Part shown: positions 338 through 17,002 of the stretch, piece after piece
Layout of the letters: each line of letters opens with the position of its first letter
Numbering within the stretch: the first letter of the stretch is position 1
IMG/VR virus record: IMGVR_UViG_3300037473_000050
Coordinates: 1-40,413 of that record
Length of the DNA: 40,413 nucleotides
Source of the DNA: a virus
Lineage: Duplodnaviria > Caudoviricetes
Reading direction: 5' to 3' (one strand)
The notes under the pieces: model-generated
What the model was told of the DNA's origin: nothing
What the model saw: the letters and a program-made list of their open reading frames with translations, nothing else
Databases searched by the model: none
Position numbers and translations under genes: made by a program

Positions 338-362
338 CCGTCCAATCCTCAGGGAGTCTCGA

Positions 363-1592: not shown

Positions 1593-1662
1593 CTTGGCTC
1601 ATCTCCTCGAAAGTGCTGTTGGGTTATCCGCTTACTGTCTCGGTGGGGGGGCTGGTTACGGG

Positions 1663-1830
1663 TCAGCGGCAAATGGCTGGTTCGCCGATATCGAGCACGT
1701 CGACCGTCTCTTCGTCGCGCGCCTCGACGATCTCTTCGCGGTCGTATCTGTCGCGGGCCTCGATTGCCGTCTCAGCCTCGACGACCACCACGCAACTGAC
1801 CAGCTTCGTTACCGGGATCTGCCAGAACAT
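1663..1830 (-). CDS. small acidic hypothetical protein (55 aa, below ORF-track cutoff)
   Basis: ATG at 1830 overlaps the upstream stop; MFWQIPVTKLVSCVVVVEAETAIEARDRYDREE... Confidence 0.45.
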   Translation of the reverse strand: MFWQIPVTKLVSCVVVVEAETAIEARDRYDREEIVEARDEETVDVLDIGEPAICR

Positions 1831-2036
1831 CACGCACCTCCCCGCCGCTCGATGATGTCCGCGAGGTGCTGCAGCTCGCGGCCAAGCTGGTGCTTCGAGT
1901 CACTGAGGCACGACTCCCCAAGGCCCGGCGGACAGAGCCTCTGTCCGTTCCCCCGAAGAAAGTCGACGATATCGGACGTCGTCATGTCACCGTGGGTTAA
2001 AATCAATCCCGTGTAATCCGTGTGTGTAGCCATCAC
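1830..2036 (-). CDS. hypothetical protein
   Basis: 68-aa ORF overlapping the stop of the clamp gene. Confidence 0.45.
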   Translation of the reverse strand: MMATHTDYTGLILTHGDMTTSDIVDFLRGNGQRLCPPGLGESCLSDSKHQLGRELQHLADIIERRGGA

Positions 2037-3181: not shown

Positions 3182-3245
3182 TGTCGGCTGACTCCTGAGT
3201 TAAATTCCCGCGTTTTCGTTCGAATAACGGCTGAGACGTGATCAA

Positions 3246-3785
3246 CTACGCCTTCACCTTCCGCTTCTTCTTCACCGGACCGTTCCGCAGCGTCTCGATC
3301 ACTTCCCGCTGCGCCGCGTTGTCCGGCTCCTGCTGTCCCGAGTAGCACAAGCCGATCTGTGCCAGGACAAAGGCGTCTGTTTCGTCGCTGGTCGCAAACT
3401 CGATGCCCCATCGCTTGAACGCCGCCACGGCAATCGCTGTCTTGTCTGCGTTTCCTTTACCGGTGGCGAATTTCTTGAGTTGCGATGGCGTCACCTCCAC
3501 AACGTCCGGCGTTATCTCCAGCAGCTTCATTCTCAGGATGCCGCCGTACTCAGCGAGATTCGTGACGGCATCGCCCCTTGATCCGAAGCTGTAGTCTTCC
3601 AGCATCACGCGAGCGTTCAGCGGCACGGCATTGACTACCGTGTTCGCCAGCGTGATAAATCGCAGCATGCGTCCTCGTAGCCCTTCTGCCGGGACCGACG
3701 AAAATCGCTCCGGGTTGTTGCCGGCAACGCACACCGCCGTCCCGGTCAACGACGGATCTATGCCCACTACGACTGTCTTGCTCAT
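3246..3785 (-). CDS. ruvC: RuvC-like Holliday junction resolvase
   Basis: VVGIDPSLTGT, MLEDY, PSQLKKFATGKGNADK and DETDA catalytic motifs. Confidence 0.9.
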   Translation of the reverse strand: MSKTVVVGIDPSLTGTAVCVAGNNPERFSSVPAEGLRGRMLRFITLANTVVNAVPLNARVMLEDYSFGSRGDAVTNLAEYGGILRMKLLEITPDVVEVTPSQLKKFATGKGNADKTAIAVAAFKRWGIEFATSDETDAFVLAQIGLCYSGQQEPDNAAQREVIETLRNGPVKKKRKVKA

Positions 3786-3979
3786 GCTTCCTCCCTGTGT
3801 GGTTCCGCCCCGTCACTCCCCGCACGACGACGGGTGATCTCCTCGGAAATGTTGTCGATCAGCTCTGCGATACTATCGAAGCTCAACGTGTACAGAGCGT
3901 ATTCGCGGCGGCGGTATATTGCCGCTCGCACCCTCAGCAACGCCAGCACATCGTCCACAGTCCGGATTGGTGAGGTCAT
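3782..3979 (-). CDS. hypothetical protein
   Basis: 65-aa ORF with 4-nt overlaps on both sides; AAGGAG SD. Confidence 0.5.
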   Translation of the reverse strand: MTSPIRTVDDVLALLRVRAAIYRRREYALYTLSFDSIAELIDNISEEITRRRAGSDGAEPHREEA

Positions 3980-4383
3980 GGGGTCTCCTTCGGCGTGGCG
4001 TGCATCCCGGCGCAGATCGCCTCAAGCAGCGTGGAACAATCAACCGCAGGTCCGTCCGTCAACCCCCAGATTCGCTTGCAGCCGTTGTCCCAGTCCGTGC
4101 CAGCCTCAATCATCCTGCCGTTTGGCAACTCGATGTTGGCGTCCTCGTCTGCGAAGTGCCGTTTCTCAAGTGCATAGACAGCGAAGTCTCGCTCTCGTTT
4201 CGTGAGTTCATACGAGCACCGTGCCGCCGTCAGGAACACGCTGTTCGTGGATGCTTCCGATTCCAGTTTCCTCACCCGCGCCACTGCCTGCCGGAGGGCT
4301 GAGGCGAGGGACTGCACGTCGCGATTCGACGGCCATCTCCATGAAGCCTCATCCGCCAACTTCATAATCTCGTCGTCACTCAC
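3976..4383 (-). CDS. hypothetical protein
   Basis: ORF 3976..4407; GTG at 4383 follows GGAGGT. Confidence 0.5.
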   Translation of the reverse strand: MSDDEIMKLADEASWRWPSNRDVQSLASALRQAVARVRKLESEASTNSVFLTAARCSYELTKRERDFAVYALEKRHFADEDANIELPNGRMIEAGTDWDNGCKRIWGLTDGPAVDCSTLLEAICAGMHATPKETP

Positions 4384-4600
4384 AGCACACCTCCCCTGTC
4401 GGCTCAATCCCCATCCTCCGCATCAACGCCCGCCGCGTCTCGTCGCCTTGCTCTGTCCCGAACGCCGCGCACATCCGGTATGCCAGCACCTCGAACGACA
4501 CGAACCGCTCGGGCTCCGGCTTCTTCAGGCTTGACGCTCGCGGGAGTCGCGTGCAGTGGTTGTCGATGTGGTGCGCCTTGGTTGGCGTTACGGTTGGCAT
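4376..4600 (-). CDS. hypothetical protein
   Basis: packed ORF; start uncertain. Confidence 0.35.
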   Translation of the reverse strand: MPTVTPTKAHHIDNHCTRLPRASSLKKPEPERFVSFEVLAYRMCAAFGTEQGDETRRALMRRMGIEPTGEVCCE

Positions 4601-4875
4601 TCGTGGACCCACCTTTCGTGACCAAGACTACCCGCTCTCTGAAGCATCAGGCGATGAGCCGTCGCAATCTCGCCGCCGCTCTCATGCAGTCGCCATCCCT
4701 GCTCTCTCAGCGTCTGCCGCAGCTTGTCGAGGGGGGACGGCTGGAGGGCTGCAACTGCAGTACCGAGCCCGCCGGGAATGTAGTTCTTGTTCACGGCAAG
4801 CGTTGACCACTCCAGCAGCTCCCGCGTCTTGCTCGCCAGCTCCGCGTGGTCCATCGAATCCAAGTGGTCAGACAT
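4588..4875 (-). CDS. hypothetical protein
   Basis: ATG at 4875 (MSDHLDS) after AAGGAG. Confidence 0.5.
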   Translation of the reverse strand: MSDHLDSMDHAELASKTRELLEWSTLAVNKNYIPGGLGTAVAALQPSPLDKLRQTLREQGWRLHESGGEIATAHRLMLQRAGSLGHERWVHECQP

Positions 4876-5284
4876 CGGTGGTCTCCTTTCCGTATTCAGG
4901 GTGCATGTCGTGCATGTGTGCCGAAAGCTGTTTGAAGGTGCGATGGCAGCAGGGACATACGCCGGCACCGATCCGCTTTTTCAGTTTCGTCTGCTGTCCC
5001 TTGGCGGCACTGAGTTGCCTATCACGCTGTGCAATGGCTTCGCGGGCGTCACGAATTCGAGCGTCCTTCTGATCAACCTGCTGCTTCAACGATGCGTTCT
5101 CGCGCTGAAGGCGCTTTACCGTCGTGTCGCAAAAGCACTGGCTATGCCCCGATGGGCAGTAGAACTCTTCGCCGGTGTCGACCCAGCGACTCTTCGTCCG
5201 CTGGTCCACCGCAAAAAGCATGTGGCACTTGTAGCACTCCAGAGTTACGAAGGTTTCCGTAAACGAAAGCATCGTCGTCGCCAT
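4868..5284 (-). CDS. zinc-finger and coiled-coil protein
   Basis: From ATG 5284: CYKC...FYCPSGH, a coiled coil, then C2H2-like CPCCHRTFKQLSAHMHDMH. Confidence 0.65.
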   Translation of the reverse strand: MATTMLSFTETFVTLECYKCHMLFAVDQRTKSRWVDTGEEFYCPSGHSQCFCDTTVKRLQRENASLKQQVDQKDARIRDAREAIAQRDRQLSAAKGQQTKLKKRIGAGVCPCCHRTFKQLSAHMHDMHPEYGKETTDV

Positions 5285-5754
5285 CACCCTTGCTCCTTTC
5301 CCAACAGGTCCACCAACTGTTTCCAGTACGGGCGCATCCAGTCGCCCGGCAACCACAAGTCGCCGAGGCTCTCCACCCACGACACAACCTGCTTCCCGCT
5401 TGCCTGAGTCCAGAACGCAACGTCCGCTTCGCCTTTGAGGCACTTCACCAGCATGCACAGCACTCGTCCGCACTGGATGTGGCGGTGAAAGAATCGATGA
5501 TGGTAGGCGCTCAGCATCATGAAGTTGGACACGTCGTCCCGGCGCTTGAAAATGTGATTCAGCTCGACTCCCATAATCGCCGTCATGTCCACCGGACGCC
5601 CCACCCACACCTCGATCCCCGGCAGGTACTTGCTCCATTCGTCGTCGGCATTGGCCTCGCGGTACGCCTGCCGCAGCTCCGGGTTCTGATGCCGTGGCGT
5701 CTTGCGGGTGCGCTTCATGGCTGTGCGTTTGAGCGGGGTGCGGCGCTTCATCAT
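5284..5754 (-). CDS. degenerate HNH-like/NinG-like nuclease family protein
   Basis: Basic N-terminus MKRRTPLKRT; ELNHIFKRRDDVSNFMMLSAYHHRFFH resembles an HNH core. Confidence 0.5.
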   Translation of the reverse strand: MMKRRTPLKRTAMKRTRKTPRHQNPELRQAYREANADDEWSKYLPGIEVWVGRPVDMTAIMGVELNHIFKRRDDVSNFMMLSAYHHRFFHRHIQCGRVLCMLVKCLKGEADVAFWTQASGKQVVSWVESLGDLWLPGDWMRPYWKQLVDLLGKEQG

Positions 5755-5981
5755 GAATTCCCGTTGGCTGCTGCGATCACGTCCCAAAGGAAGCTCGCGT
5801 GCGGATCGGAAACCACCTGCTCATAGACTGTCGTTGCCTCTTCCTTCACCTGTTCCGGCGCTTCGACGTACCCATAGAGAGTGCCGCCGTCTCGCTCGTT
5901 ACCGCTATCGGCGATTCTCTGATACTCCGACTTCTTGAACTTCACTTCGTTGATCGCCTGAATTCTGATCATGTACTTCAT
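5751..5981 (-). CDS. hypothetical protein
   Basis: 76-aa ORF with 4-nt overlaps on both sides. Confidence 0.55.
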   Translation of the reverse strand: MKYMIRIQAINEVKFKKSEYQRIADSGNERDGGTLYGYVEAPEQVKEEATTVYEQVVSDPHASFLWDVIAAANGNS

Positions 5982-6214
5982 GGATTCCCTTTCGTTTCCG
6001 GTGCCTGCTCCACAACCCTGATCGCCCTCGACTTGCCAGCCTCACGCACGATCTGCTTCTTCTTCTCCAACGCCTTCAGGTGGCAGCACACGCCGTTCGT
6101 TGTCTTGATCCCGAACTCAGCCCCGATCTCCCGCACCGTCGGCGGGTAGCCACGAGAGGCGATCGACGTGCGGATGTAGGCGAGGATGGCGGACTGCTTT
6201 GTGGTGAGGGTCAT
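5978..6214 (-). CDS. LexA N-terminal DNA-binding domain protein (no peptidase domain)
   Basis: LTTKQSAILAYI...GYPPTVREIGAEFGIKTTNGVCCHLKALEKK...SRAIRV matches the LexA winged helix. Confidence 0.85.
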   Translation of the reverse strand: MTLTTKQSAILAYIRTSIASRGYPPTVREIGAEFGIKTTNGVCCHLKALEKKKQIVREAGKSRAIRVVEQAPETKGNP

Positions 6215-7632
6215 CGGTATCGCTCCGGCGTCACGTCGTACTGCCCGCCCGGAGGCGTCAAGTAACTCGCCGATCGGTATTCCATCGTGGGACCGTCCCA
6301 GTACAGTTTCACTTCGCCAGTCTTCCCGTTGCGATGCTTGCGGATGTAGAGCGTTGCCTCGTGCTCGTCAGCCATCGGGTCGTATGATCGAGGGCGGTCG
6401 ATCATCATCACCAAGTCTGCGTCCTGCTCGATGCTTCCCGATTCCCGTAGGTCGGAGAGTTGGGGTGTCTTGTCGTTTCGCAGCTCGATTTGCCGATTGA
6501 GCTGAGCGAGGCAGATGATTGCGATCTTGAGTTCCTTCGCCAGATTCTTGAGCCCGCGGCTGATCACCGACACCTGCTGCTCGCGTGGCACCCGGCGGTC
6601 GAATGGTTCGATGAACTGCAGGTAGTCGACGACGACGAGCCTCGTCTTGTGCTTCCGTTGCAGCAGCCGCGTCACCGATGCGATCGTCTGGACCGTCCTC
6701 CCAGGTGTGGCGTCGATCTGCACCGGATACTGGGACGCCGCCGAGGCGTTCATATTCAGCCGGTCGAGCATGTCCTCCGATTGGTAGTTCTTCCGCATCT
6801 CGTCGAGCGAGACGTGAGCCTCCATCGAAAGGATTCGTTCCGCGACTTCGATCTCCGACTGCTCCAGGGAGAAGAACGTCACCGGAACCTTGGCGCGGGC
6901 GGCGTGCAGCAGCATCCGAATTGCGAGGGCCGTCTTGCCAACGCTGGGTCTGGCAGCCAGCACGTTGAAACTCCCCGGCTGAAAACCGTTCGTCAGCTTG
7001 TCCAGATCATCGAAGCCGCTCGTGACGCCGAACGTCGTCCCCGCCCCGATGCGGTTGATTGCGTCGAGGAGCATGCCCTCGATCGAGGTGTCAAGTATTC
7101 CCGTCTGCCGTTCCAGCGTGTCGTGGAGCTTCCCCTCGACAGTGCCGATGACTGCGTCAATTTCCCGAAGCTCGTCCTCCGCCCCGATAATCCCGTCAAT
7201 GCAGGCTGACACCGTCGCCCGTCGTAGCGCCTTCTCGCGAATCGTCTCGGCGTAGGTCACGGCATGCGCGGCATGCGGCAGCTTTTCGGCACACTGAGCG
7301 AGGAATTCCACCCCGCCGATTTCCTCAAGCTGCCCCTTCGCCTGCAGGTAGTCCGCCAACGTCACGTCGTCGATCGGCTTGTGCTTGGACCGCATGTGTA
7401 CGATCGCTTCAAACACCATCCGACATTCCGGCAGGTAGAAATCCTCCTTCGACACGGAGTCCGCGACTTCGTCGACGCGATTCGGCTCGATCAGCAGTGC
7501 CGCCACGAGTGACATTTCCGCCTCGATGCTATGGGGGGCTGGTCGGGATGTCTGACCGGAACGCGTTGGCGAGGATTCCCGCCGCGCCTGCGTGCCCGTT
7601 TGCTGCCTGTTGCCATTTCCTGATTCGCCCAC
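6211..7632 (-). CDS. dnaB: replicative DNA helicase
   Basis: PHSIEAE N-terminus, Walker A AARPSVGKT, FSLEQ, VVDYLQ, LAQLNR, LSDLRESGSIEQDAD, KHRNG; GTG 7632 after GGAG is the likely start (ORF extends to 7803). Confidence 0.95.
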   Translation of the reverse strand: MGESGNGNRQQTGTQARRESSPTRSGQTSRPAPHSIEAEMSLVAALLIEPNRVDEVADSVSKEDFYLPECRMVFEAIVHMRSKHKPIDDVTLADYLQAKGQLEEIGGVEFLAQCAEKLPHAAHAVTYAETIREKALRRATVSACIDGIIGAEDELREIDAVIGTVEGKLHDTLERQTGILDTSIEGMLLDAINRIGAGTTFGVTSGFDDLDKLTNGFQPGSFNVLAARPSVGKTALAIRMLLHAARAKVPVTFFSLEQSEIEVAERILSMEAHVSLDEMRKNYQSEDMLDRLNMNASAASQYPVQIDATPGRTVQTIASVTRLLQRKHKTRLVVVDYLQFIEPFDRRVPREQQVSVISRGLKNLAKELKIAIICLAQLNRQIELRNDKTPQLSDLRESGSIEQDADLVMMIDRPRSYDPMADEHEATLYIRKHRNGKTGEVKLYWDGPTMEYRSASYLTPPGGQYDVTPERYR

Positions 7633-8377
7633 GCGACCGCTCCATCTGCTCGCCGGTGAGTTCGTCCCACCGTCGATCGAAAACGATTGCCGAAAACAAC
7701 CCGAGGGGATTCTTGAATCCAGGCTTCGTCGCCGCGACGTGCAGCGCGTGCTCTGCCGCCCCGAGGAAATTCTGCCGCCCGATGTCCGTGTCCAATTCGC
7801 CATAGCCCGACTCCGCCAGCTTTTGAGAAATGCCGATGAGCTTTTCGGTATCCTTCAGGTCGTTGAGCTCCAGTCGCTCAGCAGCCAGCAGCCTCTTCAG
7901 ATTTTTCAAATCAGCAGGACCAGCAGACTGCTGTTCTGAAAGAACAGCTACTCTGCTCTGCTCTTCTCTGCTCTCTGCTCTGCTCTTCTCTGCTCTGGAC
8001 GCCGTTTTGAAGCCGTCGCGTGGCTTCAATTTGGCTTCACGACGGCTTCGTTGTTGCTTCATTTTCACCGCTCTGGTTTTCGCTCCGTCGCTCATATGGT
8101 CATTGAACTTAGGGAAAACCACACAGTCGTCCTTGATCTCCAGCCAGCACACAGCGGACATCGCAATAGCGAATCCGTCGCGCGAAACTTTCTTGTCAAT
8201 CCAGCGCGCCGTGATGCCCATTGCAATGCCATCTGACGTTTGTTGATTCGCCCACGACCACAATCGATGCAGCTTCCCGACGACCAGGTCTTCCTCAATT
8301 CCGAGTGACGCAGCCATTGCCACAACAGCCGGATCGTCGGCAAGGTCCACTCGCATCTTGATCCAGTCGCCAGCCAT
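7529..8377 (-). CDS. phage replication initiator / replisome organiser
   Basis: MAGDWIKMRVDLADDPAV...VGKLHRLWSWA N-terminus typical of phage initiators; lies directly upstream of dnaB; internal repeats. Confidence 0.75.
   Translation of the reverse strand: MAGDWIKMRVDLADDPAVVAMAASLGIEEDLVVGKLHRLWSWANQQTSDGIAMGITARWIDKKVSRDGFAIAMSAVCWLEIKDDCVVFPKFNDHMSDGAKTRAVKMKQQRSRREAKLKPRDGFKTASRAEKSRAESREEQSRVAVLSEQQSAGPADLKNLKRLLAAERLELNDLKDTEKLIGISQKLAESGYGELDTDIGRQNFLGAAEHALHVAATKPGFKNPLGLFSAIVFDRRWDELTGEQMERSRGRIRKWQQAANGHAGAAGILANAFRSDIPTSPP
7930..7996. repeat. candidate replication origin inside the initiator gene
   Basis: Two perfect tandem 22-mers CTCTGCTCTGCTCTTCTCTGCT (7951-7972, 7973-7994) and inverted repeat GCTGTTCT-GAA-AGAACAGC (7930-7948). 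Confidence 0.6.
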
Positions 8378-8646
8378 CAACCGCCGACCTCCTGGTGGAG
8401 CTGACGTTCCACCTCCGCGACGTACCACCCGCCGCCCACCTGAGCGATGATCCGCAGCCATCCGAGCGAACCGCGGACTGCAACCTTGTCACCGGGCTTC
8501 GCCAGAAAGCCGTCCAGCCTCGCCACGGCGTTCAAGAGGTAAAGTATGGAATCTTTCCCCTGAACCCTTTCGCGGCGTTCCTGAAGGCAGCAGAGCAGCC
8601 GAAATGCGTCGTGCCGCTTCAGGTAGATGACGTGTTCGTTTGACAT
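8377..8646 (-). CDS. hypothetical protein
   Basis: ATG 8646 after GGAGGT; stop overlaps the initiator start. Confidence 0.55.
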   Translation of the reverse strand: MSNEHVIYLKRHDAFRLLCCLQERRERVQGKDSILYLLNAVARLDGFLAKPGDKVAVRGSLGWLRIIAQVGGGWYVAEVERQLHQEVGG

Positions 8647-8661
8647 GCGACCTCCATTCAG

Positions 8662-8738
8662 TGCTGGCGGCAGGAGTCGAACCTGCAACTACCGATCGTC
8701 GTCACGAACGGCGCTTCTGCCATTTGAGCTACACCAGC
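8662..8738 (-). tRNA. tRNA-like RNA (Thr-like acceptor; aberrant anticodon arm; no encoded CCA)
   Basis: Acceptor GCTGGTG/CGCCAGC, TAGCTCAAATGG D-loop, T arm GCAGG-TTCGACT-CCTGC, discriminator A. Confidence 0.7.
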
Positions 8739-8895
8739 ATTTGCCGGCCCCCGAAGGAACCGGCTGCGCCCACGCATCGCCAGCCTGAGCAAGCCGACCG
8801 CGTTTCTCTGAACGCGATGTAAGTCACGCCTCGGTTCTTGCACTCGGCCCCGAAGGGAGCGGTGCCCGGATACGGCGCGTGCCCGGTCCAATTGG

Positions 8896-9075
8896 TCACG
8901 CTTGATTCGTTGCACCATCCAGAACGGGAGAACTCGCCGCGAGACAGGAGATAACCCACTGCTGCCAAGCCGGCGGCAATCCCTCGATTTCCTTCCGGCA
9001 ATGAGTCAATGCCAGGAGTGCCTTTTTCGTCTCGCCGTTGGTATCAACCGGCGGAACCGTCGCTGCTTTCGCCAT
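8896..9075 (-). CDS. hypothetical protein
   Basis: ATG 9075 (MAKAATVPP) after AAGGA. Confidence 0.45.
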   Translation of the reverse strand: MAKAATVPPVDTNGETKKALLALTHCRKEIEGLPPAWQQWVISCLAASSPVLDGATNQA

Positions 9076-10090
9076 CGTCGTCGTCCTTCTTGAGTGAGTA
9101 GGATTCCATCTTGGGAGCCTGCTTCCGCTTTGGGCGTCCCGTGCCAAAGTAGTTCCCTGCTGGCGTCTCAATGTCCCGCCCGGTGCTCTTCACGATGCCG
9201 GAGGCAATCTTCTGCAACGCCTTGAGGTTCGCTTCCCGAGCCACGATCTCGTCAACCAGCCCGCAGGCGTCCAACGCCCCATCGTGGATGTCGCGGGAGG
9301 CTGCCGGGCATAAAGCTGCGGCATTGCACATCGAGCACTTCTGAACCGTGGGCCACGTCGCCGACTGCTCGGGAGCGATGTCCCGGTGGGAGGCGTAAGC
9401 CTGACAGGCGGAACGGACCCGCCAGTCGAGTTCGTACAGCTCGGAACGCTTATAGAGCACCGGATAGGTCAACTGGTTGAACCGCGTGTTCCAGATCCGC
9501 ACCCGCACTGCTTGAACGTCTGGGTAGTTGTGCAGCGTCACCCAGCTCTGGAACGCGAACTGGAAGGATTCGGCAACCTTGCTGTGATCCCAGCGTAAAT
9601 ATCCACTTTTGTAATCAACGATCTCCGCCACCTCGGGTGATTCCGAGACATACAGCAGATCCAGCTCCGTCGTCGCCCGTATCCGGAACTCCGGCCAGTC
9701 GTGAGCCAGTTGCCCCGAGCGTTCCCCCTCGCCGCCGTCCCACCGCAGGACGTTATCGTGGTGGATGCCGTTCAGGAACTTCGCCCAGCCGTGAGCCACG
9801 CTGCGGACTGCCGCAATCACGTCGGGCTGGATGTCGGGACGGGATGCACACGCCAACTGGAGAAGCTCATCCCGCAAGTCGTTGACGCCCATCTGCCCGC
9901 GAGACTCGACATAGGCGGAAGTGACTTCTGAGAATGCGTTATGGACTGCGGAACCGCTCTCGGTTTCGTCGGAGTCGCACCGCACGCGGCCCAGCTCGAT
10001 GAAGCGGGCTTGTGCCGGGCAGAGGCTGAACCGCTCTATCGTGGAACGGTCGACTACCGTGTAATCGTCGATGAGGAATTCGTCTGTCAT
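9044..10090 (-). CDS. PD-(D/E)XK (RecB/Cas4-like) exonuclease with probable Fe-S cysteines
   Basis: ERFSLCP, GSAVH, ELDLL...IVDYKSG, FQ, and C-terminal CSMCNAAALC; start MTDEFLID at 10090. Confidence 0.8.
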   Translation of the reverse strand: MTDEFLIDDYTVVDRSTIERFSLCPAQARFIELGRVRCDSDETESGSAVHNAFSEVTSAYVESRGQMGVNDLRDELLQLACASRPDIQPDVIAAVRSVAHGWAKFLNGIHHDNVLRWDGGEGERSGQLAHDWPEFRIRATTELDLLYVSESPEVAEIVDYKSGYLRWDHSKVAESFQFAFQSWVTLHNYPDVQAVRVRIWNTRFNQLTYPVLYKRSELYELDWRVRSACQAYASHRDIAPEQSATWPTVQKCSMCNAAALCPAASRDIHDGALDACGLVDEIVAREANLKALQKIASGIVKSTGRDIETPAGNYFGTGRPKRKQAPKMESYSLKKDDDDGESSDGSAG

Positions 10091-10112
10091 ATTACGTTGA
10101 ATCCTGGTCTTT

Positions 10113-10316
10113 TTAGTGCTTCCCGGCCATCTTCCTGCCGCCGTGTTCCCGAGCCAGAGCTTCGATCCCCTCTCCAGTTGCATAGACGATCGCCTGCAGC
10201 GACTCGTCGTCAGCTATCCCGGCAGCGACCAGGGTCCGGTTCGGTAGTTGATTTAGCCGCTCGGTGAAACCATCAAGTCCGAACGCATCGAGGAACATGA
10301 ATCGCATCTCGGGCAT
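10113..10316 (-). CDS. hypothetical protein
   Basis: ATG 10316 after GAGG. Confidence 0.4.
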   Translation of the reverse strand: MPEMRFMFLDAFGLDGFTERLNQLPNRTLVAAGIADDESLQAIVYATGEGIEALAREHGGRKMAGKH

Positions 10317-10318
10317 GG

Positions 10319-10543
10319 TTAGTTCAGCCTCACCAGGGGCACGACTCCCTCGCCATTGCAGACAGAGCATTCCTCTTCGTCATCGCTGTCCGGCTCGTCG
10401 CCTTCCCCGAAGCAGTGCGAGCAGGCCACGCCGAGCGCTTCGCAATGTTTGCAGGCGTACTCGGCGTGCTCGATGTCCTCGCCATAGGCCTCGATCCAGT
10501 GGTGTTCCCGGTCCTCACAGTCAACGCATCGACGGCACTTCAT
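10319..10543 (-). CDS. small Cys-rich DnaJ-type zinc-finger protein
   Basis: CxxC repeats including CSHCFGEG and CSVCNGEG. Confidence 0.6.
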   Translation of the reverse strand: MKCRRCVDCEDREHHWIEAYGEDIEHAEYACKHCEALGVACSHCFGEGDEPDSDDEEECSVCNGEGVVPLVRLN

Positions 10544-10565
10544 GATTCAAATGACTCCGGTTCAA

Positions 10566-11537
10566 CTACAGTCCGTTCTCCAAAGCCGCCTTGACCCGCG
10601 TGTAATCCATCTCGCTCCACTCGGCGGCGTCCATGCAATTGAACCGCCGCTCCGAATGTTTCAGGACGTAGGCTGCCCAGTTCTCGGGGGTCGCGTCGTC
10701 CTTATGCCTGGTCGACTTCCAATCACCGAGAAGAACCTTGATGTCATCCGACACGTATCGTTTGCCGCGAGGCTGGGCGCGGGGCGCGTCGGGCTTCTGC
10801 GTCGGGTTCTCGACTGGGGGCGGAGACGGCGGATCTTCCAGGTCTTGCGTGAAGAGATCAGCCAGCCCCCACGCATTCAGGACGGCGTCCACCTTTGCGC
10901 ACTTCTTCGCCATCTTGATGGCGTTGTTCTCATCACCGCCCTTGAAGCCTGACTTTCGGCAGCCGCGCCCCTCGCCGAGGCATTCCCCGGTGACGCGAGA
11001 GATGAGGCGGCACGTCATTACGAATGTGCCCTTCGGTTCGCCGAGCTGCTTCCACGCCATCAGGTCTGATTCGTATTCGTCGCGGGCACCGAGGACATCG
11101 CATAGGAAATCGGCACCGGCTTTGTAGAGCGACGGCTTCGCCTGCCACTGGGAAAGCGGGACGAAAACTTCTTTCCCGTCCGCTCCGTCTTTTCCCTTCC
11201 TCCACGAGATGATGTAGGCTGCGTCCGCTTCGTTGCATGGTCGGCGCTTCTCGTCTGCGTATCGCGGTTCGGTTCCAGGAGGATGCCCATAGTGAATTCC
11301 GATGCGAAGCTGTTCCTTCAGCCATTTGCGGAACGTATCACGGCGTTCCTTGAACTCCGCCAGGGCGGTCTGCATCGCAGCCGCAGGCATCATCATGAAC
11401 CCTGCCCGGAGATCACGAATCGCAGTGCTATCGACAGCCTGCGGTGCAGCGACAACCGCCGGCAACTGCTCGACTTCCGGCATCACGTTCTCGACGCCGA
11501 CGAACTCCGCTTCGGGGATCAGTGATTTCTGAGTCAT
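10566..11537 (-). CDS. ssDNA-annealing recombinase (Rad52/Sak-like family)
   Basis: KPSLYKAGAD...NNAIKMAKKCAKVDAVL...DLFTQDLED signature; near the exonuclease. Confidence 0.7.
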   Translation of the reverse strand: MTQKSLIPEAEFVGVENVMPEVEQLPAVVAAPQAVDSTAIRDLRAGFMMMPAAAMQTALAEFKERRDTFRKWLKEQLRIGIHYGHPPGTEPRYADEKRRPCNEADAAYIISWRKGKDGADGKEVFVPLSQWQAKPSLYKAGADFLCDVLGARDEYESDLMAWKQLGEPKGTFVMTCRLISRVTGECLGEGRGCRKSGFKGGDENNAIKMAKKCAKVDAVLNAWGLADLFTQDLEDPPSPPPVENPTQKPDAPRAQPRGKRYVSDDIKVLLGDWKSTRHKDDATPENWAAYVLKHSERRFNCMDAAEWSEMDYTRVKAALENGL

Positions 11538-11824
11538 CAGTCTGCGTACTCCATCGAGTTGCCAATTTGATCTCTCACCTGCTCGTCGATCTCGTCCCGG
11601 AACTCCGACTGCAAATCGCGTCCGGCGAACTTGGCTTCGAGGTTCGTCTCCGGCTCAAACCGAAAGCCTGTCTTGCCCTTCCAGATGACGCCGTAGTCGA
11701 GTCGCGTGTCGTTCGGCTCCTGGTATCGCCCGGCATCATCGAGATACGGTTCCACGAGGACGTACCAATCGACGAGGACTTTCCCGTCACGCTTGGTTTG
11801 CAGATGTGCTTCGTACTCCCTCAC
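11537..11824 (-). CDS. hypothetical protein
   Basis: GTG 11824 after GGAGG; stop overlaps the annealase start. Confidence 0.5.
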   Translation of the reverse strand: MREYEAHLQTKRDGKVLVDWYVLVEPYLDDAGRYQEPNDTRLDYGVIWKGKTGFRFEPETNLEAKFAGRDLQSEFRDEIDEQVRDQIGNSMEYAD

Positions 11825-11909
11825 GGCTGCGTCCCTCCAAACGTTCCCCGACACCACACCCCGAACAACACGGCACCGATGACGATGGCGGCGGCAAAGT
11901 GGGGGTGGA

Positions 11910-12176
11910 TCATTCCGGCACCTCGATATCGAAGGCGAACGGGGAGACGGTAATACCACTATCAAACTCATCGACGAAACCGACGCACCGGCTGGGAAGG
12001 GTAACCTTCGCTCTCGCATCACCGGTCTCGATGTTCCACAGTTCCATAATCGAACCAAACACAGATGCACCAAGCCCAGTGGCTCTGCAAACTGCCATCG
12101 CTATTGGGCAGCAACTCGGAAGCGGCTGTCCCTCATCGATATCCTCCTGCGTCACCTCAACGTGGATCGTCTTCAT
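11910..12176 (-). CDS. hypothetical phage protein
   Basis: 88 aa, MKTIHVEVTQEDIDEG...CPIAMAV. Confidence 0.6.
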   Translation of the reverse strand: MKTIHVEVTQEDIDEGQPLPSCCPIAMAVCRATGLGASVFGSIMELWNIETGDARAKVTLPSRCVGFVDEFDSGITVSPFAFDIEVPE

Positions 12177-12369
12177 CCCTCAGCCCTCCCACCACACTTG
12201 CAAAGAATCCTCGGCTCGCAGCAGTCCCAGCACATCCGCTCGTGAGGGTTGTACTCACGCTCCGGGCAAGGCTCGCAGGCTGCCGTGAATCGCTGGACGG
12301 CGCTCAGCGGCCACCAGACGCGGGGGATGATGTTTGTCGATTCCGTCAGATTTCCCAGAGGCGTGCGAA

Positions 12370-12624
12370 TCATGGCTTCTCCTTTCCTGCAAGGATGTCC
12401 TTCGTCGCCACGAACAGTGCCGCGAAGATGACAAACGATGCGAACCAGATGAGGAAATGAACGCACAAGCACCAGAGCTGCAGCATCATCGTGGAAAACT
12501 GTCCGAACTCACGAACCGCGATTTCGTCGTGAACTCGCTCGGCACTGATGATGAGGAGCGGCGGCAAGAGCAGGACACAGAACAGCCCAGCAATTGCTGT
12601 GTAGATAACGGCTCGACGCTGCAT
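12370..12624 (-). CDS. small membrane protein
   Basis: Two hydrophobic segments; GGAGGA SD. Confidence 0.5.
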   Translation of the reverse strand: MQRRAVIYTAIAGLFCVLLLPPLLIISAERVHDEIAVREFGQFSTMMLQLWCLCVHFLIWFASFVIFAALFVATKDILAGKEKP

Positions 12625-12626
12625 GC

Positions 12627-12878
12627 TCAGTCCTCCTCCGGTCGCTGGATGTTCTGCATGGACGGCTTCTGGACTCGCCTGATCACTCCCTGCGGCGTCA
12701 CCATCTCGTCATGGTGGATCGCCTCGTAGACAACCGCTCGGTGAACCGGGATGTGCCGTGCGGTATGAATCCCAATGCGGAACTTCCCATTCGCCATTCG
12801 CACGTTGGTGACGACGGCTTGGAACTCGCCTTCGCCGATCACGATGGACTCGTCCTTGTCGATGTTCAGGATTAGCAA
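12627..12878 (-). CDS. csrA: carbon storage regulator CsrA/RsmA family RNA-binding protein
   Basis: TTG 12878 after AAGGAG gives MLILNIDKDESIVIG...FRIGIHTARHIPVHRAVVYEAI, matching the CsrA pattern MLIL...GESI.IG...VRIGI.AP..V.VHR.E.Y. Confidence 0.8.
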   Translation of the reverse strand: MLILNIDKDESIVIGEGEFQAVVTNVRMANGKFRIGIHTARHIPVHRAVVYEAIHHDEMVTPQGVIRRVQKPSMQNIQRPEED

Positions 12879-12915
12879 AGTGTGGCACTCCTTCCGTGGG
12901 GTGGGTGGAAACGAT

Positions 12916-13125
12916 TTACTTCGCGTACTTCTTCGCAATCGCAGTCATGGCTGCCACGTCGAGTGGCTTCCCGGTCTTGAACGTCTTCAGCGGAATCCCT
13001 CTGTTCCTCATCCAGCTCGCGCGGGACGTAGCGGCATTCGGCGTGATCCCGAGGATGCGCCCCACTTCCACGGAACTGGATGACTGCTGCCACGTCTTGA
13101 TGAACTCTTCCTGACTCACAGCCAT
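12916..13125 (-). CDS. small helix-turn-helix DNA-binding protein
   Basis: ATG 13125 after GAGGA; SSVEVGRILGITPNAATSRASWMR is HTH-like. Confidence 0.6.
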   Translation of the reverse strand: MAVSQEEFIKTWQQSSSSVEVGRILGITPNAATSRASWMRNRGIPLKTFKTGKPLDVAAMTAIAKKYAK

Positions 13126-13129
13126 TGCC

Positions 13130-13400
13130 AGTCCTCGTCGTTTGAAACAAAACCGGGCATCCGTGCCCCTTATCCGCCCCGCCCCTCGCCAGTCCGTTGG
13201 CATGCGGAACGTGCTCCTTATGGTGTTGGAATCCCTCCCACCGTCCGCTGGGCAAGGCGGGGTGGGTGGGAGGGCGGGACAAACAAAACGGTGCCAGCCC
13301 CGTGGATACTGCCCGCATGCTGGCGTTGCGGAACGAGCGTCGTGCCTGTGAAGGAGTGTCGGCACCGCAGTCCGGGTCTCCGGGTGCCCGGGTGGGAATG
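13130..13400 (-). ncRNA. putative structured leader or sRNA with GGA hairpins (CsrA-site-like)
   Basis: 10 GGA motifs; hairpins GGGCA-CGGA-UGCCC and GCCA-ACGGAC-UGGC; duplicated boxes CGUUCCGCA and GUUUUGUUU. Confidence 0.5.
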
Positions 13401-13405
13401 GGCTC

Positions 13406-13720
13406 TCAGTCAGTGAACTGCTCCATCAAGATGTCTCTGTTTTCTTTGTTCAGCTTCCGCCAATAGAGGTAGCGCTCCGCCACAAAGTCGTCGTTGAACG
13501 GAAACTGGTCGTCCGGATATCCGGTCAACTCAGACCAGCGACGAATGACCGCCTCGAACATCAGCGGCCGATACTTCCTGGTGTTGCTCGTCCACTTCTC
13601 CGCACCGCTCTTGTCGTTTGCGTCCAGTTCCTCACTCGCCGCCGCAACAGCTAATGCGAGCGGCTTCGGCTGCGTCTTTGCGAACCAATCAGGCAACCGA
13701 CGACTTTTCGTTTCCGACAT
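13406..13720 (-). CDS. hypothetical protein
   Basis: 104-aa ORF with GGAG SD. Confidence 0.55.
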   Translation of the reverse strand: MSETKSRRLPDWFAKTQPKPLALAVAAASEELDANDKSGAEKWTSNTRKYRPLMFEAVIRRWSELTGYPDDQFPFNDDFVAERYLYWRKLNKENRDILMEQFTD

Positions 13721-15149
13721 CGCTATCTCCCTTTGAGATGAATTCCAAAAACCGCTCCCGGGAAACTGGATCGCACTTCTCCCAGAGGCGGGTAAGTTCC
13801 TTCACGAAATCTTTCTCTGGCGGAACAACGCCGAGATGCTCGTCGACGAATTCCTTCAGAGTCTTCGCCGTGATCTTCGATGGGTCGTCGACGGATTCGA
13901 CTGCGGCCTGCCAGACTGTTGCTGCGTCGGAGTCGGATTCGATGCGAAGAAGTTGCCGAACGTGAGATTCTCGCTCCGGCAAAACCTTGCCAATTGGCAA
14001 GGTTTTCAGTGCCTCGCATTTCACGAACCCACATATCATTCGGGTTGCATAACCCTCGGATACTCCCCACCGACGCTCGACGTATTCCTTGAACGTCTGG
14101 AACTCTTCGCGGTACAGCCGCTGTGATGGCTTGCCGCTGTCGCGGATTGCACGCAATGCCCTGCCAGCGTCAACGAAGCTCCGGAAGTGCTGGTGAATCG
14201 CCAGCTCGTACTCCTCCAACTCGGCTCGCTCGATCTCTGATAGAGGGGCACCGATCTGAACGGACTCAGGGACCGCCACAGTCGTCGACGGCGGGTCGTA
14301 GTTCAGAATCAGCAACTCTTTGCCGTCAGCCTTCACGGCGTTGGTAGTACCGGCGTATTTCCAAGTCGCAGTTACGATCCGATACCGATCTTCCGGATAC
14401 AGCGACCGAATCAAGCCCGCTCCGTCGTCGTCGTAGCTGATGCAGACCTTGTGCTGGCACCGTGCGACGACTTCCGCGAATCGCCTGTGATCCTCTTGGG
14501 TAAAGCCGTGCTGGTAGAGCTGGGATGATGCGGTCAGATTCGTGTTGACCACATACGGCGGATCGGCGTAGATCCAGACGTTCTCCCCCGGAGCGTCGAA
14601 TAGATCGGCGTAGTCTCCGCAGGTGATCTCCGTTCCGGTGAGATGTTCCGCCGCATGCGTGAGCCTGTCCGTCGCCGTGATCCCCCACCCATCAGGGTTG
14701 GAGAAATAAAGTCTGGATGGAATGTCGTAGTTGACTCTGCCGCTGCCGTGGACGGTTCGATTGACGAAGTAGTACCGAAGTGCCTGATCGCATTCCTGAT
14801 TGAGGCACAGTTCCTCGAATGTCTTTTTCAGCCTGGCGTTCGTCGGCTTCCCGCCTCGCGGACCTTCCTCGGTGAGAGGGTCAGATTCGTGGGCAATCGG
14901 AATCGCCTTGCATGCCGCAATGAATTCATCCGGGCGGTCACGCAGAGCCTTGTAAACCTCAATCAATCCAGAATGCTTGTCATTGATCCATCGCTTCTCG
15001 CACGCAGTTGAATTCAGCCCGAAGAAGATTCCGCCACCACCGACGAACGGTTCGCGGTACTCACGGACGCCGAACGGTCTCTGTGCGAGAATCCAATCTC
15101 GGACCATCGCTTTCGACTTGCCGCCCGGATACCGGAATATGCTGTCCAC
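13689..15149 (-). CDS. Dam/D12-class N6-adenine DNA methyltransferase with extra C-terminal domain
   Basis: FRYPGGKS, EPFVGGG, IND, YADPPY, ISYDD and ELLILNY motifs, plus about 190 extra C-terminal residues. Confidence 0.9.
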   Translation of the reverse strand: MDSIFRYPGGKSKAMVRDWILAQRPFGVREYREPFVGGGGIFFGLNSTACEKRWINDKHSGLIEVYKALRDRPDEFIAACKAIPIAHESDPLTEEGPRGGKPTNARLKKTFEELCLNQECDQALRYYFVNRTVHGSGRVNYDIPSRLYFSNPDGWGITATDRLTHAAEHLTGTEITCGDYADLFDAPGENVWIYADPPYVVNTNLTASSQLYQHGFTQEDHRRFAEVVARCQHKVCISYDDDGAGLIRSLYPEDRYRIVTATWKYAGTTNAVKADGKELLILNYDPPSTTVAVPESVQIGAPLSEIERAELEEYELAIHQHFRSFVDAGRALRAIRDSGKPSQRLYREEFQTFKEYVERRWGVSEGYATRMICGFVKCEALKTLPIGKVLPERESHVRQLLRIESDSDAATVWQAAVESVDDPSKITAKTLKEFVDEHLGVVPPEKDFVKELTRLWEKCDPVSRERFLEFISKGDSDVGNEKSSVA

Positions 15150-15296
15150 CTCTGCCCCTTTTGTCGGTACGTACCGGTAGCGCGAAATGCCTCAGGACGC
15201 TTACTTGCCTGCCGCCGAATGGACGGTGGTCATTGTGTGGTCTCAGATTTGCCGAAAGGCTCTGGTCGCGGCAGAAGCCGCAAGAAGAGCAAGAAT

Positions 15297-15341
15297 CAAA
15301 AACAAACGCCGCTGACCAGGGTTCGAATCCCAATCAACGGC
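15297..15341 (-). terminator. promoter-proximal hairpin with U-tract (attenuator-like)
   Basis: GCCGUUGAUUGGG-AUUCGAA-CCCUGGUCAGCGGC followed by GUUUGUUUUU. Confidence 0.6.
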
Positions 15342-15344
15342 GGC

Positions 15345-15373
15345 ATACTATCGTAGCCTAACCGCTACGTCAA
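15345..15373 (-). promoter_or_regulatory. sigma70-type early promoter with operator palindrome in the spacer
   Basis: TTGACG-N17-TAGTAT; inverted repeat CGTAGC-N6-GCTACG at 15352-15369. Confidence 0.75.
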
Positions 15374-15618
15374 GCTATTTTCTCCAAAATTCTTTTCGGC
15401 TCGGCAAGCAGATCGCAGATGTCGAGTCCGAGGGCTTTCGCGATGCGCCCCGCACGTTCGAGGCTGACCCCTTCATTTCCCGACAGAATGCGGCTAATGT
15501 TGGGTCTCTTCGTGTCGCAGATATCGGCGAGTTGTTCCATCGTCAGACCTCGCTCGTGGCGAACTCTGTCGAGGTTCTTTCGAAAGACATCGGCGGGCTG
15601 GGCTGGCATCGCGTTCAT
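15370..15618 (-). CDS. XRE/Cro-family HTH transcriptional regulator
   Basis: FRKNLDRVRHERGLTMEQLADICDTKRPNISRILSG...SLERAGRIAKALG. Confidence 0.9.
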   Translation of the reverse strand: MNAMPAQPADVFRKNLDRVRHERGLTMEQLADICDTKRPNISRILSGNEGVSLERAGRIAKALGLDICDLLAEPKRILEKIA

Positions 15619-15624
15619 GCTCCG

Positions 15625-15653
15625 AATGTACTTTTGATGCTACGCGAATTCAA
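15625..15653 (-). promoter_or_regulatory. promoter for a leaderless XRE mRNA
   Basis: TTGAAT-N17-TACATT, 6 nt before the ATG, no SD; operator half-site CGTAGC in the spacer. Confidence 0.65.
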
Positions 15654-15856
15654 GACCGACCGCCGCCAACTGTTCGAACGGGCGGATTCTTGCAAGTGAC
15701 GCCCCAGCAGGACGGCGGTCGGTTTGTTCAACTGTCGCCCACCGTGGCGTCCGCTCGACCTCCTAGCTCGGGGTTTCCCGGCGATTTCGAGCGGGATTCC
15801 CGGCAGAGGCAAGCGGCATACCAAGTGGAACGATCCAGACATATCCACGTCAATAG

Positions 15857-15888
15857 ATATTGCCTATATTTCCTATATTTGTTAAACT
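15857..15888. promoter_or_regulatory. overlapping oppositely directed promoters in an AT-rich island
   Basis: Plus: TTGCCT-N17-TAAACT (15860-15888). Minus: TTAACA-N17-CAATAT (15885-15857). Tandem CCTATATTT x2 at 15863-15880. Confidence 0.55.
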
Positions 15889-16108
15889 GCCCTCGGAGCC
15901 TCCCGAACAAGTCGATTCCCAAGTCTTCCTGAGGCGGTCGCGGAAGCGTGGCAGACTTTGACGGTTCGTAATAATCGGAATCAGGAGGTAGTTGCCCGCG
16001 AGAGAACTGCCGATCATGTCTGATGCGGCGTGCCCCGGATGGTGTTAGGACGGCGGCTCGGAAGCCCTGAGATTCGGAGGGAGTCGTCCTCACTCACTGG
16101 AGCTTCTG

Positions 16109-17002
16109 ATGCAGAGCACGGACACCGTGCGGTCGCTGCTCGACCGCTATCTCAACGAGAACCTGATTGCCTACGACGTGAAAACGCGGGGCAAATACGA
16201 GGTGGCTATCCGCCGGCTGGAGCGAACTCTTGGGGAAGAGGCCACGCTCTCGCACCTGACGAACAGCCACCTCGCGCGCATGATGGGCGACATGGATCGT
16301 CAGGGACGATCGCGGCCGACGACGAACGGATACAGAGCCAAATTGGTAGCTCTCTGGACATGGGCTTGCAAACAGGGATGGCTGCAAACGTGGCCCAGCG
16401 TCAAGAAGCTGCCCGAGTCTCGACGTTCTCCGGTCGCGTGGAGCGCTAATGAGATCGGCATCCTGTGGAGGTCTCTTGATGCAATTCCCGGATTCGTCGG
16501 CGGAATCCGCGCTTCCCTCTGGTGGAAGGCATACCTTTTGACCGCGTGGGACACCGGAGAAAGACATTCCGCCCGACTGGCGATGGAATGGCACCATTTC
16601 ACGGACTGGGATCAGGGACGCGGCGTCATCCCTGCAGAGGTTCGCAAGGGGCGTTCAGCCGACTTGCCTTTCTCCCTGCACCGGGACACGATGACGATCC
16701 TGCAGAAGATTCGCAGCCTCGATGCAGAGCGTCCCTTGCCGTGGCCCTACAGCGAATGCCTGTTCTGGATTCGCTTCCGCAAGGTGCTCAAGCGTGCCGG
16801 GCTGCCGTCGACCAGCAAGCACATGAGCCACTGCCTCAGGCGTTCCGTAGCAACGCATCTCGTTCGCGGGGGAGCCGACAGAGCGTCCGTCTCAGGCGTC
16901 CTCGGACAGAAGGACTTGACGGTCATTGACCTCTACCTGGATGGCACGATGCTGCCGGGAACGATTCCCCACGAGCGACTGTTCCGCCCGTGGGATGCGT
17001 AA
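16109..17002 (+). CDS. int: tyrosine recombinase / integrase
   Basis: Core-binding-type N-terminal region, then DTGER, RKG, HCLRR, LGQ and LYL catalytic motifs. Confidence 0.9.
   Translation: MQSTDTVRSLLDRYLNENLIAYDVKTRGKYEVAIRRLERTLGEEATLSHLTNSHLARMMGDMDRQGRSRPTTNGYRAKLVALWTWACKQGWLQTWPSVKKLPESRRSPVAWSANEIGILWRSLDAIPGFVGGIRASLWWKAYLLTAWDTGERHSARLAMEWHHFTDWDQGRGVIPAEVRKGRSADLPFSLHRDTMTILQKIRSLDAERPLPWPYSECLFWIRFRKVLKRAGLPSTSKHMSHCLRRSVATHLVRGGADRASVSGVLGQKDLTVIDLYLDGTMLPGTIPHERLFRPWDA

What the first reader, a model, noticed from the sequence alone, without database searches (positions are those of the whole stretch)
12627..13400. Phage-encoded CsrA next to a GGA-hairpin RNA region: a possible self-contained phage Csr circuit
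Seen: a CsrA-like ORF whose own ribosome-binding region reads ACGGAAGGAG (two ANGGA motifs, about 12887-12897). One small gene upstream lies a roughly 270-nt region with 10 GGA motifs on the transcribed strand. Two sit in textbook CsrA-site hairpin loops: GGGCA-CGGA-UGCCC (13155-13168) and GCCA-ACGGAC-UGGC (13188-13201). Known: CsrA/RsmA binds ANGGA in hairpin loops and is titrated by CsrB/RsmY/RsmZ sRNAs. Inference: the phage carries both the repressor and either a sponge sRNA or a CsrA-controlled leader gating the recombination/replication operon.
Basis: partly seen in the sequence, partly recalled or inferred. Interest (0 to 1): 0.8.

Follow-up and report, generated by a model that had tools for sequence, protein, structure and literature searches.

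The report
Altered phage CsrA beside operator hairpins
A temperate phage, likely of planctomycete soil bacteria, carries a CsrA translation-regulator gene that has lost a residue pair almost every relative keeps, and one gene upstream sits a short cluster of GGA-loop hairpins that likely acts as a CsrA-controlled mRNA leader, probably read by the host's CsrA rather than forming a self-contained phage circuit.

Summary
The ORF is a real CsrA (Pfam 41.9 bits; CsrA fold). Both hairpins exist. Ten GGA in 270 nt is ordinary (13% of windows), but the cluster of ANGGAN hexaloops (two stable, one occluded) is beyond chance. The conserved unit is an ~80-nt module (AAGGAG, extended hairpin H2, hairpin H1, U-tract) that ends 6 nt above the next gene's Shine-Dalgarno. 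In one close relative it precedes a different gene. In another, one low-depth contig keeps H1's loop with a two-sided stem change. That fits a CsrA operator leader better than a sponge sRNA. The 'self-contained circuit' is weak. The phage CsrA lost R6 and E46 (R6 in 182 of 187 homologous domains) and changed R7, A36 and P37, although R44 is kept and the core appears under purifying selection. Nine related phages all carry a csrA match; the 10 copies read keep R6/E46, and none has a hairpin cluster. Planctomycete genomes hold 4-26 CsrA paralogs that could read the leader. Phage csrA is in print, and the scan found CsrA-type hairpins in other phages before. New here: the R6/E46-less variant. Nothing is tested for binding or expression.

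The parts
12627..12878 (-). csrA variant, 83 aa, TTG start; keeps L2 L4 R31 V42 H43 R44, has T5N R6I R7D A36T P37A E46V (E. coli numbering); C-terminal tail shared with a small CsrA lineage
12888..12897 (-). ACGGAAGGAG: Shine-Dalgarno plus an upstream ANGGA; possible autoregulatory site, not in a hairpin loop
12916..13125 (-). 69-aa small phage protein, helix-turn-helix-like by predicted structure; first gene under the leader
   Evidence: GC3 0.79
13132..13136 (-). Shine-Dalgarno GAGGA of the 69-aa gene; also an AGGA-type CsrA site 28 nt below the GGA of H1
13145..13153 (-). U-tract 2 (GUUUUGUUU) after H1; terminator-like tail or ribosome standby sequence; can pair weakly with the Shine-Dalgarno
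13155..13168 (-). Hairpin H1, GGGC-ACGGAU-GCCC, canonical hexaloop site; loop kept with a two-sided closing-pair change in run X8
13176..13211 (-). Extended hairpin H2: ACGGAC hexaloop on a 5-bp stem (13187-13202) above an 8-bp lower stem; nearly the same stretch (13172-13211) is kept in run X8
13214..13219 (-). AAGGAG, kept in X8 although its flanks differ: single-stranded CsrA site and/or Shine-Dalgarno of ATG 13203
13227..13274 (-). Large hairpin (13233-13274, -28 kcal/mol, z -3.85) that occludes a third loop AGGGAU (H3, 13227-13240); separable from the H2-H1 module in X8 and X9
13281..13322 (-). Hairpin followed by U-tract 1 (same 9-mer as U-tract 2); terminator-like
13406..13720 (-). 104-aa ORF of no known family, upstream neighbour
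6211..11537 (-). Downstream early genes: 323-aa phrog_10048 protein, PD-(D/E)XK exonuclease, replication initiator, DnaB
13689..17002 (.). Upstream context: D12-class adenine methyltransferase (-), HTH regulator 15370-15618 (-), divergent tyrosine integrase 16109-17002 (+)

Best explanation
The ~80-nt hairpin module at 13219-13142 is likely a CsrA operator in the phage's early mRNA, probably read mainly by canonical host CsrA, while the adjacent phage gene encodes a conserved CsrA variant lacking R6 and E46 that is predicted to bind such RNA weakly or differently. Mechanism (inferred): one CsrA dimer bridges AAGGAG and the H2 loop (22 nt apart), another bridges the H1 loop and the AGGA Shine-Dalgarno (28 nt apart). 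This blocks ribosome loading on the 69-aa gene and, by coupling, lowers csrA and the next small genes. The phage would thereby tie part of its early programme to the host's free-CsrA level. Shown: sequence, family, fold model, residue losses, motif clustering, modular conservation.
For: Cluster beyond chance. The ANGGAX hexaloop directly on a stem is the high-affinity form (PMC4005645, section 19 part 1). Spacings of 22, 33 and 28 nt lie in the 10-63 nt bridging range (PMC7652899, passages). The region has no coding signature (GC3 0.58-0.62 against 0.72-0.80 in neighbours); run X3 keeps 13142-13260 with 1 difference, then has another Shine-Dalgarno and gene start; run X8 keeps 13172-13211, the AAGGAG and the H1 loop with the closing pair changed C-G to G-C. 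For a host reader: R6 in 182 and E46 in 181 of 187 homologous domains, with only this protein and its 85% relative lacking R6. R6A abolishes RsmE repression, R6-E46 is a salt bridge, and R6L, A36S and P37L are reduced-function alleles in V. cholerae (PMC4526715, passages). Residues 5-10 carry charge -2, seen in 5 of 184 domains. Five planctomycete genomes hold 4-26 PF02599 matches each; 74 of the 80 best genome hits are labelled Planctomycetota.
Against: No expression or binding data. The covariation rests on one 151-nt record at depth 2 in a G/C run, and those runs were picked because they share words with the query. The global minimum of the 280-nt region buries H1 and H2. H1 plus U-tract also scores as a terminator. 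No cluster in 9 related phages (467,372 bases), and no homolog of the element in 401 planctomycete genomes (3 weak 30-41-nt matches), IMG/VR patterns, JGI metagenomes or GenBank phages. The core motif is read by backbone hydrogen bonds and R44, both kept, so the phage protein may still be a competent reader. The host is inferred from CsrA kinship with a planctomycete-leaning seed; phage genes found only distant planctomycete matches.
Confidence: 0.45

Rival explanations
1. Self-contained negative feedback: the phage's own variant CsrA still binds ANGGA loops and represses the leader and its own ribosome-binding site, as the first reader proposed in the 'leader' form.
For: R44, H43, V42, L2, L4, R31 are kept. 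The fold matches RsmE/CsrA chains at 1.2-1.6 A. Core recognition is by backbone. The core changed at 4 of 61 positions against 10 of 21 in the tail between P0001 and P0002 (Fisher p=9e-5), so the protein appears selected. Two ANGGA at its own start, with no difference listed there in run X2. Three related phages have a hexaloop hairpin over their own csrA start.
Against: Loss of R6, E46, P37 and of positive charge on strand 1. 0 of 14 RBS-like ANGGA sites in this phage sit in a hairpin, so there is no phage-wide regulon. The csrA site is not in a loop. The module reassorts against downstream genes.
Confidence: 0.25
2. The hairpins are ordinary early-operon structures (weak intrinsic terminators or processing/stability hairpins between gene cassettes); the GGA loops are incidental and csrA is an unlinked neighbour.
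For: H1 plus U-tract is called terminator-like. The same GUUUUGUUU follows an upstream hairpin without GGA. GC-rich stretches followed by GGTTTT/GTTTT precede csrA starts in three related phages. The global fold buries the loops. The cluster is absent from 9 relatives.
Against: Three ANGGAN hexaloops in 80 nt is rare under three controls. The loop is kept while the stem changes in X8. H2 has no U-tract.
Confidence: 0.15
3. A phage-encoded Csr sponge sRNA (RsmZ-like) ending at the H1 U-tract titrates host or phage CsrA.
For: Up to four ANGGA in 75 nt followed by a hairpin and U-tract. The module moves as a unit. sRNAs with only two GGA motifs can bind CsrA tightly (PMC7652899, passages).
Against: Only two loops are predicted open. 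No Rfam Csr/Rsm match. No promoter-like site upstream on this strand (planctomycete promoters may not be covered). The module abuts a ribosome-binding site in the window and in X3. 160 other csrA loci show no such cassette (cluster of 2 in 1 of 160, none of 3).
Confidence: 0.08
4. The stretch from ATG 13203 is translated (26-codon N-terminal extension of the 69-aa protein, or a leader peptide), and the conserved AAGGAG is just its Shine-Dalgarno.
For: AAGGAG lies 10 nt above an ATG in frame with the 69-aa gene. In X8 and X9 the large hairpin is followed directly by an RBS and, in X9, an ATG.
Against: No coding GC3 pattern. The protein on record is the 69-aa form. In X8 this frame meets a TGA after about 18 codons and in X3 it is out of frame with the apparent GTG start (read by eye).
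Confidence: 0.07

Closest known systems
CsrA/RsmA/RsmE family (Pfam PF02599; PDB 2JPP, 1VPZ, 2BTI)
   Same: Profile match above cut-off, predicted fold with rmsd 1.2-1.6 A over 55-57 residues, R44/H43/V42/L2/L4 kept
   Different: R6 and E46 both replaced by uncharged residues, R7 by D, A36-P37 by T-A; 3-residue insert; extra C-terminal tail with a predicted beta-hairpin
Phage-borne CsrA: RsmM of P. aeruginosa phages (PMC7366521), PTXU04_00028 (PMC11879866), PHROG 9500
   Same: csrA carried by a phage; 30 of 2517 phage genomes in the 2020 survey; knock-down of the PTXU04 gene shrinks plaques
   Different: The Pseudomonas paralogue groups are reported to conserve the RNA-contact residues; no phage target or sponge appears in the passages read; other host phylum
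CsrA-repressed leaders (E. coli glgC and csrA itself; P. protegens hcnA)
   Same: Upstream hexaloop site(s) plus a site over the Shine-Dalgarno, 10-63 nt apart
   Different: Lies inside a phage early operon, moves as a cassette between genes, and has a terminator-like U-tract after the last hairpin
CsrB/CsrC/RsmY/RsmZ sponge RNAs
   Same: Several ANGGA motifs, two in hairpin loops
   Different: Only two open loops, no Rfam match, no promoter found, joined to a ribosome-binding site
Plasmid RsmQ of pQBR103 (PMC9928087)
   Same: Mobile-element CsrA homolog; two-hybrid evidence there of heterodimers with host Rsm proteins is the precedent for the novel case
   Different: RsmQ keeps the VHRE/D motif and binds ACGGA hairpins; this protein has VHRAV

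Membership tests
CsrA/RsmA protein family | Match to PF02599 above the gathering score | tested here: met
   41.9 bits against 27, residues 1-55
CsrA/RsmA protein family | Beta-strand sandwich plus short helix fold | tested here: met
   AF2 pLDDT 88.5; top Foldseek hits are CsrA/RsmE chains, prob 1.00, E 2e-3 to 4e-2; the alignment used came from CsrA homologs
CsrA/RsmA protein family | RNA-binding residues R44, H43, V42, L2, L4 | tested here: met
CsrA/RsmA protein family | R6-E46 pair and basic strand-1 surface | tested here: not met
   I6, D7, V49 (=E46); R6 in 182 of 187, E46 in 181 of 187 domains. A conserved functional feature rather than a criterion of homology: it lowers 'canonical repressor', not 'CsrA homolog'
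CsrA/RsmA protein family | Homodimer | not tested
   the complex-prediction job was not run
CsrA/RsmA protein family | GGA-dependent RNA binding | not testable with these tools
   needs EMSA/ITC/CLIP
CsrA-repressed mRNA leader | ANGGAN hexaloop on a short stem | tested here: met
   H1, H2; not in the global minimum of the 280-nt region
CsrA-repressed mRNA leader | A site over the Shine-Dalgarno, 10-63 nt from an upstream site | tested here: met
   AGGA 13135-13132, 28 nt from the GGA of H1; common by chance because Shine-Dalgarno sequences contain GGA
CsrA-repressed mRNA leader | Conservation of loops with covarying stems | tested here: inconclusive
   one two-sided change in one low-depth record (X8), near-identity in X3; absent from 9 distant relatives
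CsrA-repressed mRNA leader | CsrA-dependent repression | not testable with these tools
   needs a reporter or toeprint
Csr/Rsm sponge sRNA | Many exposed GGA sites | tested here: not met
   10 GGA is at background; two predicted open loops
Csr/Rsm sponge sRNA | Match to Rfam CsrB/CsrC/RsmX/Y/Z models | tested here: not met
   only a chance snoRNA hit at E 3.8 in 12000-16500
Csr/Rsm sponge sRNA | Own promoter and terminator, discrete transcript | tested here: inconclusive
   terminator-like site at H1, no sigma-70-type promoter; no RNA data

The most novel reading that the evidence does not exclude
The phage CsrA is a 'half-blind' decoy subunit. Having lost the R6-E46 pair and the basic strand-1 surface while keeping the fold, it forms mixed dimers with host CsrA, removes two-site bridging, and so frees the GGA leader above its own gene and host CsrA targets. 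This would be a protein anti-CsrA built from CsrA itself, wired as a positive-feedback switch in the early operon.
Probability: 0.15. Interest if true: 0.75.

Novelty: new variant of a known kind. Interest (0 to 1): 0.42.

Why it matters
Phage csrA genes are common but almost untested: one knock-down phenotype, and no phage target in the passages read. This locus offers a small testable pair: a natural CsrA variant lacking a nearly invariant residue pair yet apparently under selection, and an ~80-nt candidate operator beside it. Testing shows whether temperate phages read the host's Csr state, run their own loop, or jam host CsrA with an altered subunit. It would also give a first handle on Csr regulation in planctomycetes, which carry many paralogs. 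If the protein simply binds as usual, the finding is an ordinary phage csrA with an autoregulated leader.

Tried and rejected
GGA count as evidence: rejected, at background. Phage-wide CsrA regulon on ribosome-binding sites, as in earlier scan notes: not found here, 0 of 14 RBS-like ANGGA sites in a hairpin; 6 of 177 in nine relatives, three of them on csrA. General csrA-plus-sponge cassette: not found in 80 viral and 80 genome loci; E46 in these loci is largely fixed by the search seed, so only R6 (160 of 160) counts. Loci of close relatives: none with csrA in IMG/VR, JGI metagenomes, GTDB genomes or GenBank phages; none with the 104-aa ORF; one weak 15-residue hit with the 69-aa ORF. DNA pattern scans gave only chance matches: 3, 16, 5 and 3 loci (77/80). 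L191 resembles the large hairpin beyond the pattern but lies in an unrelated gene context and was set aside. No RNA holder listed; no statement on expression follows. Runs X4 and X6 gave no piece over the H2-H1 module; with short contigs this shows nothing. Short 33-50-nt pieces at 80-90% likeness were treated as chance, except X8 record 9 and X9 record 11. Repeat search of 1-16200 showed no second copy of the module. Host assignment by phage genes was weak: 2 of 401, 3 of 251 and 3 of 301 genomes, 31-39% identity where given. No dimer prediction and no Atlas look-up of the 104-aa ORF was obtained. Paper 10.1101/2025.07.22.666180 (passages) concerns host-encoded csrA-tldR loci and was not used.

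Full report
Setting. The window is a whole 40,413-base virus record: a lambda-like temperate phage with gpA terminase, lambda portal, protease-capsid fusion, tail genes, a tyrosine integrase and a leftward early operon (HTH regulator, D12 methyltransferase, small genes, exonuclease, replication initiator, DnaB, RuvC, clamp). The best-matching run is a soil metagenome that may be the source. The host is probably a planctomycete. Of the 80 best genome hits to the CsrA, 74 are labelled Planctomycetota (the seed came from planctomycete-like homologs and the scan stopped at 600 stretches). Phage genes found only distant planctomycete matches.

The protein. ORF 12878-12627 (83 aa, TTG) matches PF02599 at 41.9 bits, cut-off 27, and phrog_9500. 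Its model (pLDDT 88.5) overlays CsrA/RsmE chains at 1.2-1.6 A. Aligned to solved CsrAs and to 187 domains from the 150 closest representatives, it keeps L2, L4, R31, V42, H43 and R44 but has T5N, R6I, R7D, A36T, P37A and E46V. R6 is present in 182 of 187 domains (3 gaps); the only two substitutions are this protein and its 85% relative P0002, which has S at the E46 position. R6 is also present in 160 of 160 fetched csrA loci, and R6 and E46 in 10 of 10 CsrAs read from related phages. In print, R6 and E46 form a salt bridge, R6A abolishes RsmE repression, and R6L, A36S and P37L are reduced-function alleles (PMC4526715, passages); R6 and E46 side chains contact a looped-out base in one complex (PMC4005645, passages). 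Against over-reading this, the A(N)GGAX core is read by backbone hydrogen bonds and R44 (PMC4005645 section 19 part 1; PMC3791407, passages), and no single residue predicted activity among natural CsrAs (PMC13443453, abstract, passages and section 37). The gene does not look decayed: P0001 and P0002 differ at 4 of 61 core positions and 10 of 21 tail positions (p=9e-5), and GC3 is 0.80. P0004, P0016, P0038 and P0060 share the C-terminal tail but keep R6, so the loss is recent in this lineage.

The RNA region. 13405-13126 has no coding signature and no Rfam match. Ten GGA is background. What stands out is three ANGGAN hexaloops on stems within 80 nt, with loops starting at 13236, 13197 and 13164. 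No local shuffle of 5000 reached three; the whole minus strand has 8 such hairpins against about 4 expected; a pair within 40 nt arose in 3 of 150 shuffled genomes; and 2 of 256 analogous loop patterns form a triple in the real sequence. These controls were chosen after the region had been flagged. Folding: the first loop is buried in a -28 kcal/mol hairpin. H2 sits on an 8-bp lower stem (13211-13176). H1 and H2 dominate when pairing span is 60 nt or less, but the global minimum of the 280 nt pairs them elsewhere, 6.4 kcal/mol lower. H1 is followed by GGUUUUGUUU and scores as terminator-like; the same 9-mer follows an upstream hairpin. The Shine-Dalgarno of the 69-aa gene starts 9 nt after this tract.

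Close relatives. Only short contigs were available (6 of 10 runs laid, all chosen for sharing words with the query). Four runs from three studies cover parts of the non-coding region. X3 keeps 13142-13260 with one difference and then continues into another Shine-Dalgarno and a GTG start. X8 record 9 (151 nt, depth 2) keeps 13172-13211, almost exactly the extended H2, with AAGGAG above it in changed flanks and an H1 reading GGGG-ACGGAU-CCCC: same loop, closing pair changed on both sides. X8 record 10 and X9 record 15 keep the large hairpin (listed changes fall in the bulge, give a G-U pair or lie outside the stem) but follow it directly with another RBS, without H2-H1. So the region is two separable units, and the GGA module travels as a leader in front of variable genes. 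The covariation is a single observation.

Distant relatives. Nine IMG/VR phages sharing the 323-aa gene and the exonuclease all have a csrA match, 8 above cut-off. In 467,372 bases, both strands, none has two hexaloop hairpins within 80 nt and none has a homolog of the element; three have a single hairpin over their own csrA start. Among 160 other csrA loci one has a pair and none a triple. This phage has no RBS-hairpin regulon (0 of 14), unlike phages in earlier scan notes. csrA is thus a standard gene of this phage group, and the hairpin cluster is a local addition.

Mechanism. Most likely (0.45) the module is an operator: sites 22, 33 and 28 nt apart fit bridging by CsrA dimers (10-63 nt; PMC7652899, passages), the last site being the Shine-Dalgarno. 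Rivals: self-contained feedback (0.25), incidental terminator-type hairpins (0.15), sponge (0.08), translated extension (0.07). The decoy-subunit idea is a bolder form of the best reading (0.15). It has a precedent in RsmQ heterodimers (PMC9928087, passages) and in the need for both RNA-binding pockets for full repression, but no direct support here.

What is known. Phage csrA is in print: 30 of 2517 phages (PMC7366521, passages) and a plaque-size phenotype for PTXU04_00028 (PMC11879866, passages). Searches listed no paper on a phage Csr sponge, a phage-internal CsrA operator or an R6/E46-less CsrA; most hits were seen as listings only, and the library lacks most subscription journals. Supplements of PMC7366521 (residue alignment, phage table) and PMC13443453 (555 tested homologs) were not read and could hold R6-less examples. 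The scan has 525 notes with the words CsrA and phage, none on this genome or these sequences. Verdict: a new variant of a known kind, interest 0.42.

Noticed in passing
window 12627-12700; proteins P0004, P0016, P0038, P0060: A small CsrA lineage shares a C-terminal tail (VTP...KPS..N...PEED-like). P0060 has the identical last 13 residues on a different, helix-truncated CsrA domain, which suggests domain swapping in this gene slot. Run X9 matches only this tail well.
   Followed up: partly
G406-G414 (L194-L240): All nine related phages carry a csrA match, two carry two; several copies are diverged around the HR motif (ILRGE, IRRGE, IAREE), a natural series for studying CsrA drift in phages.
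   Followed up: partly
G003: One planctomycete genome has 26 PF02599 matches, more than the maximum of 15 per genome cited in PMC13443453; some may be tandem domains or partial hits.
   Followed up: no
proteins P0005-P0015 and others: Many top hits are tandem two-domain CsrA proteins of 120-200 aa, and one 4912-aa protein has 8 matched stretches.
   Followed up: no
window 12916-13125: The 69-aa protein belongs to unnamed viral clusters with an HTH-like predicted fold, also seen fused to metallophosphoesterases and resembling phage GcrA.
   Followed up: partly
window 13689-15149: D12-class adenine methyltransferase with a ~190-aa C-terminal extension of no known family.
   Followed up: no
window 30948-32213 and 36516-37493: An O-methyltransferase-like gene between capsid and decoration genes, and a radical SAM/SPASM gene on the opposite strand inside the packaging module.
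   Followed up: no
window 12879-12884: Run X2 has a 3-nt shorter spacer between the csrA Shine-Dalgarno and start; the window's TTG with a 9-nt spacer may be a weak start.
   Followed up: no
window 7951-7994: Perfect tandem duplication of a 22-nt CTCTG-rich unit inside the replication initiator gene.
   Followed up: no
L191:2356-2430: Hairpin resembling the window's large hairpin in an unrelated viral contig; probably chance.
   Followed up: partly
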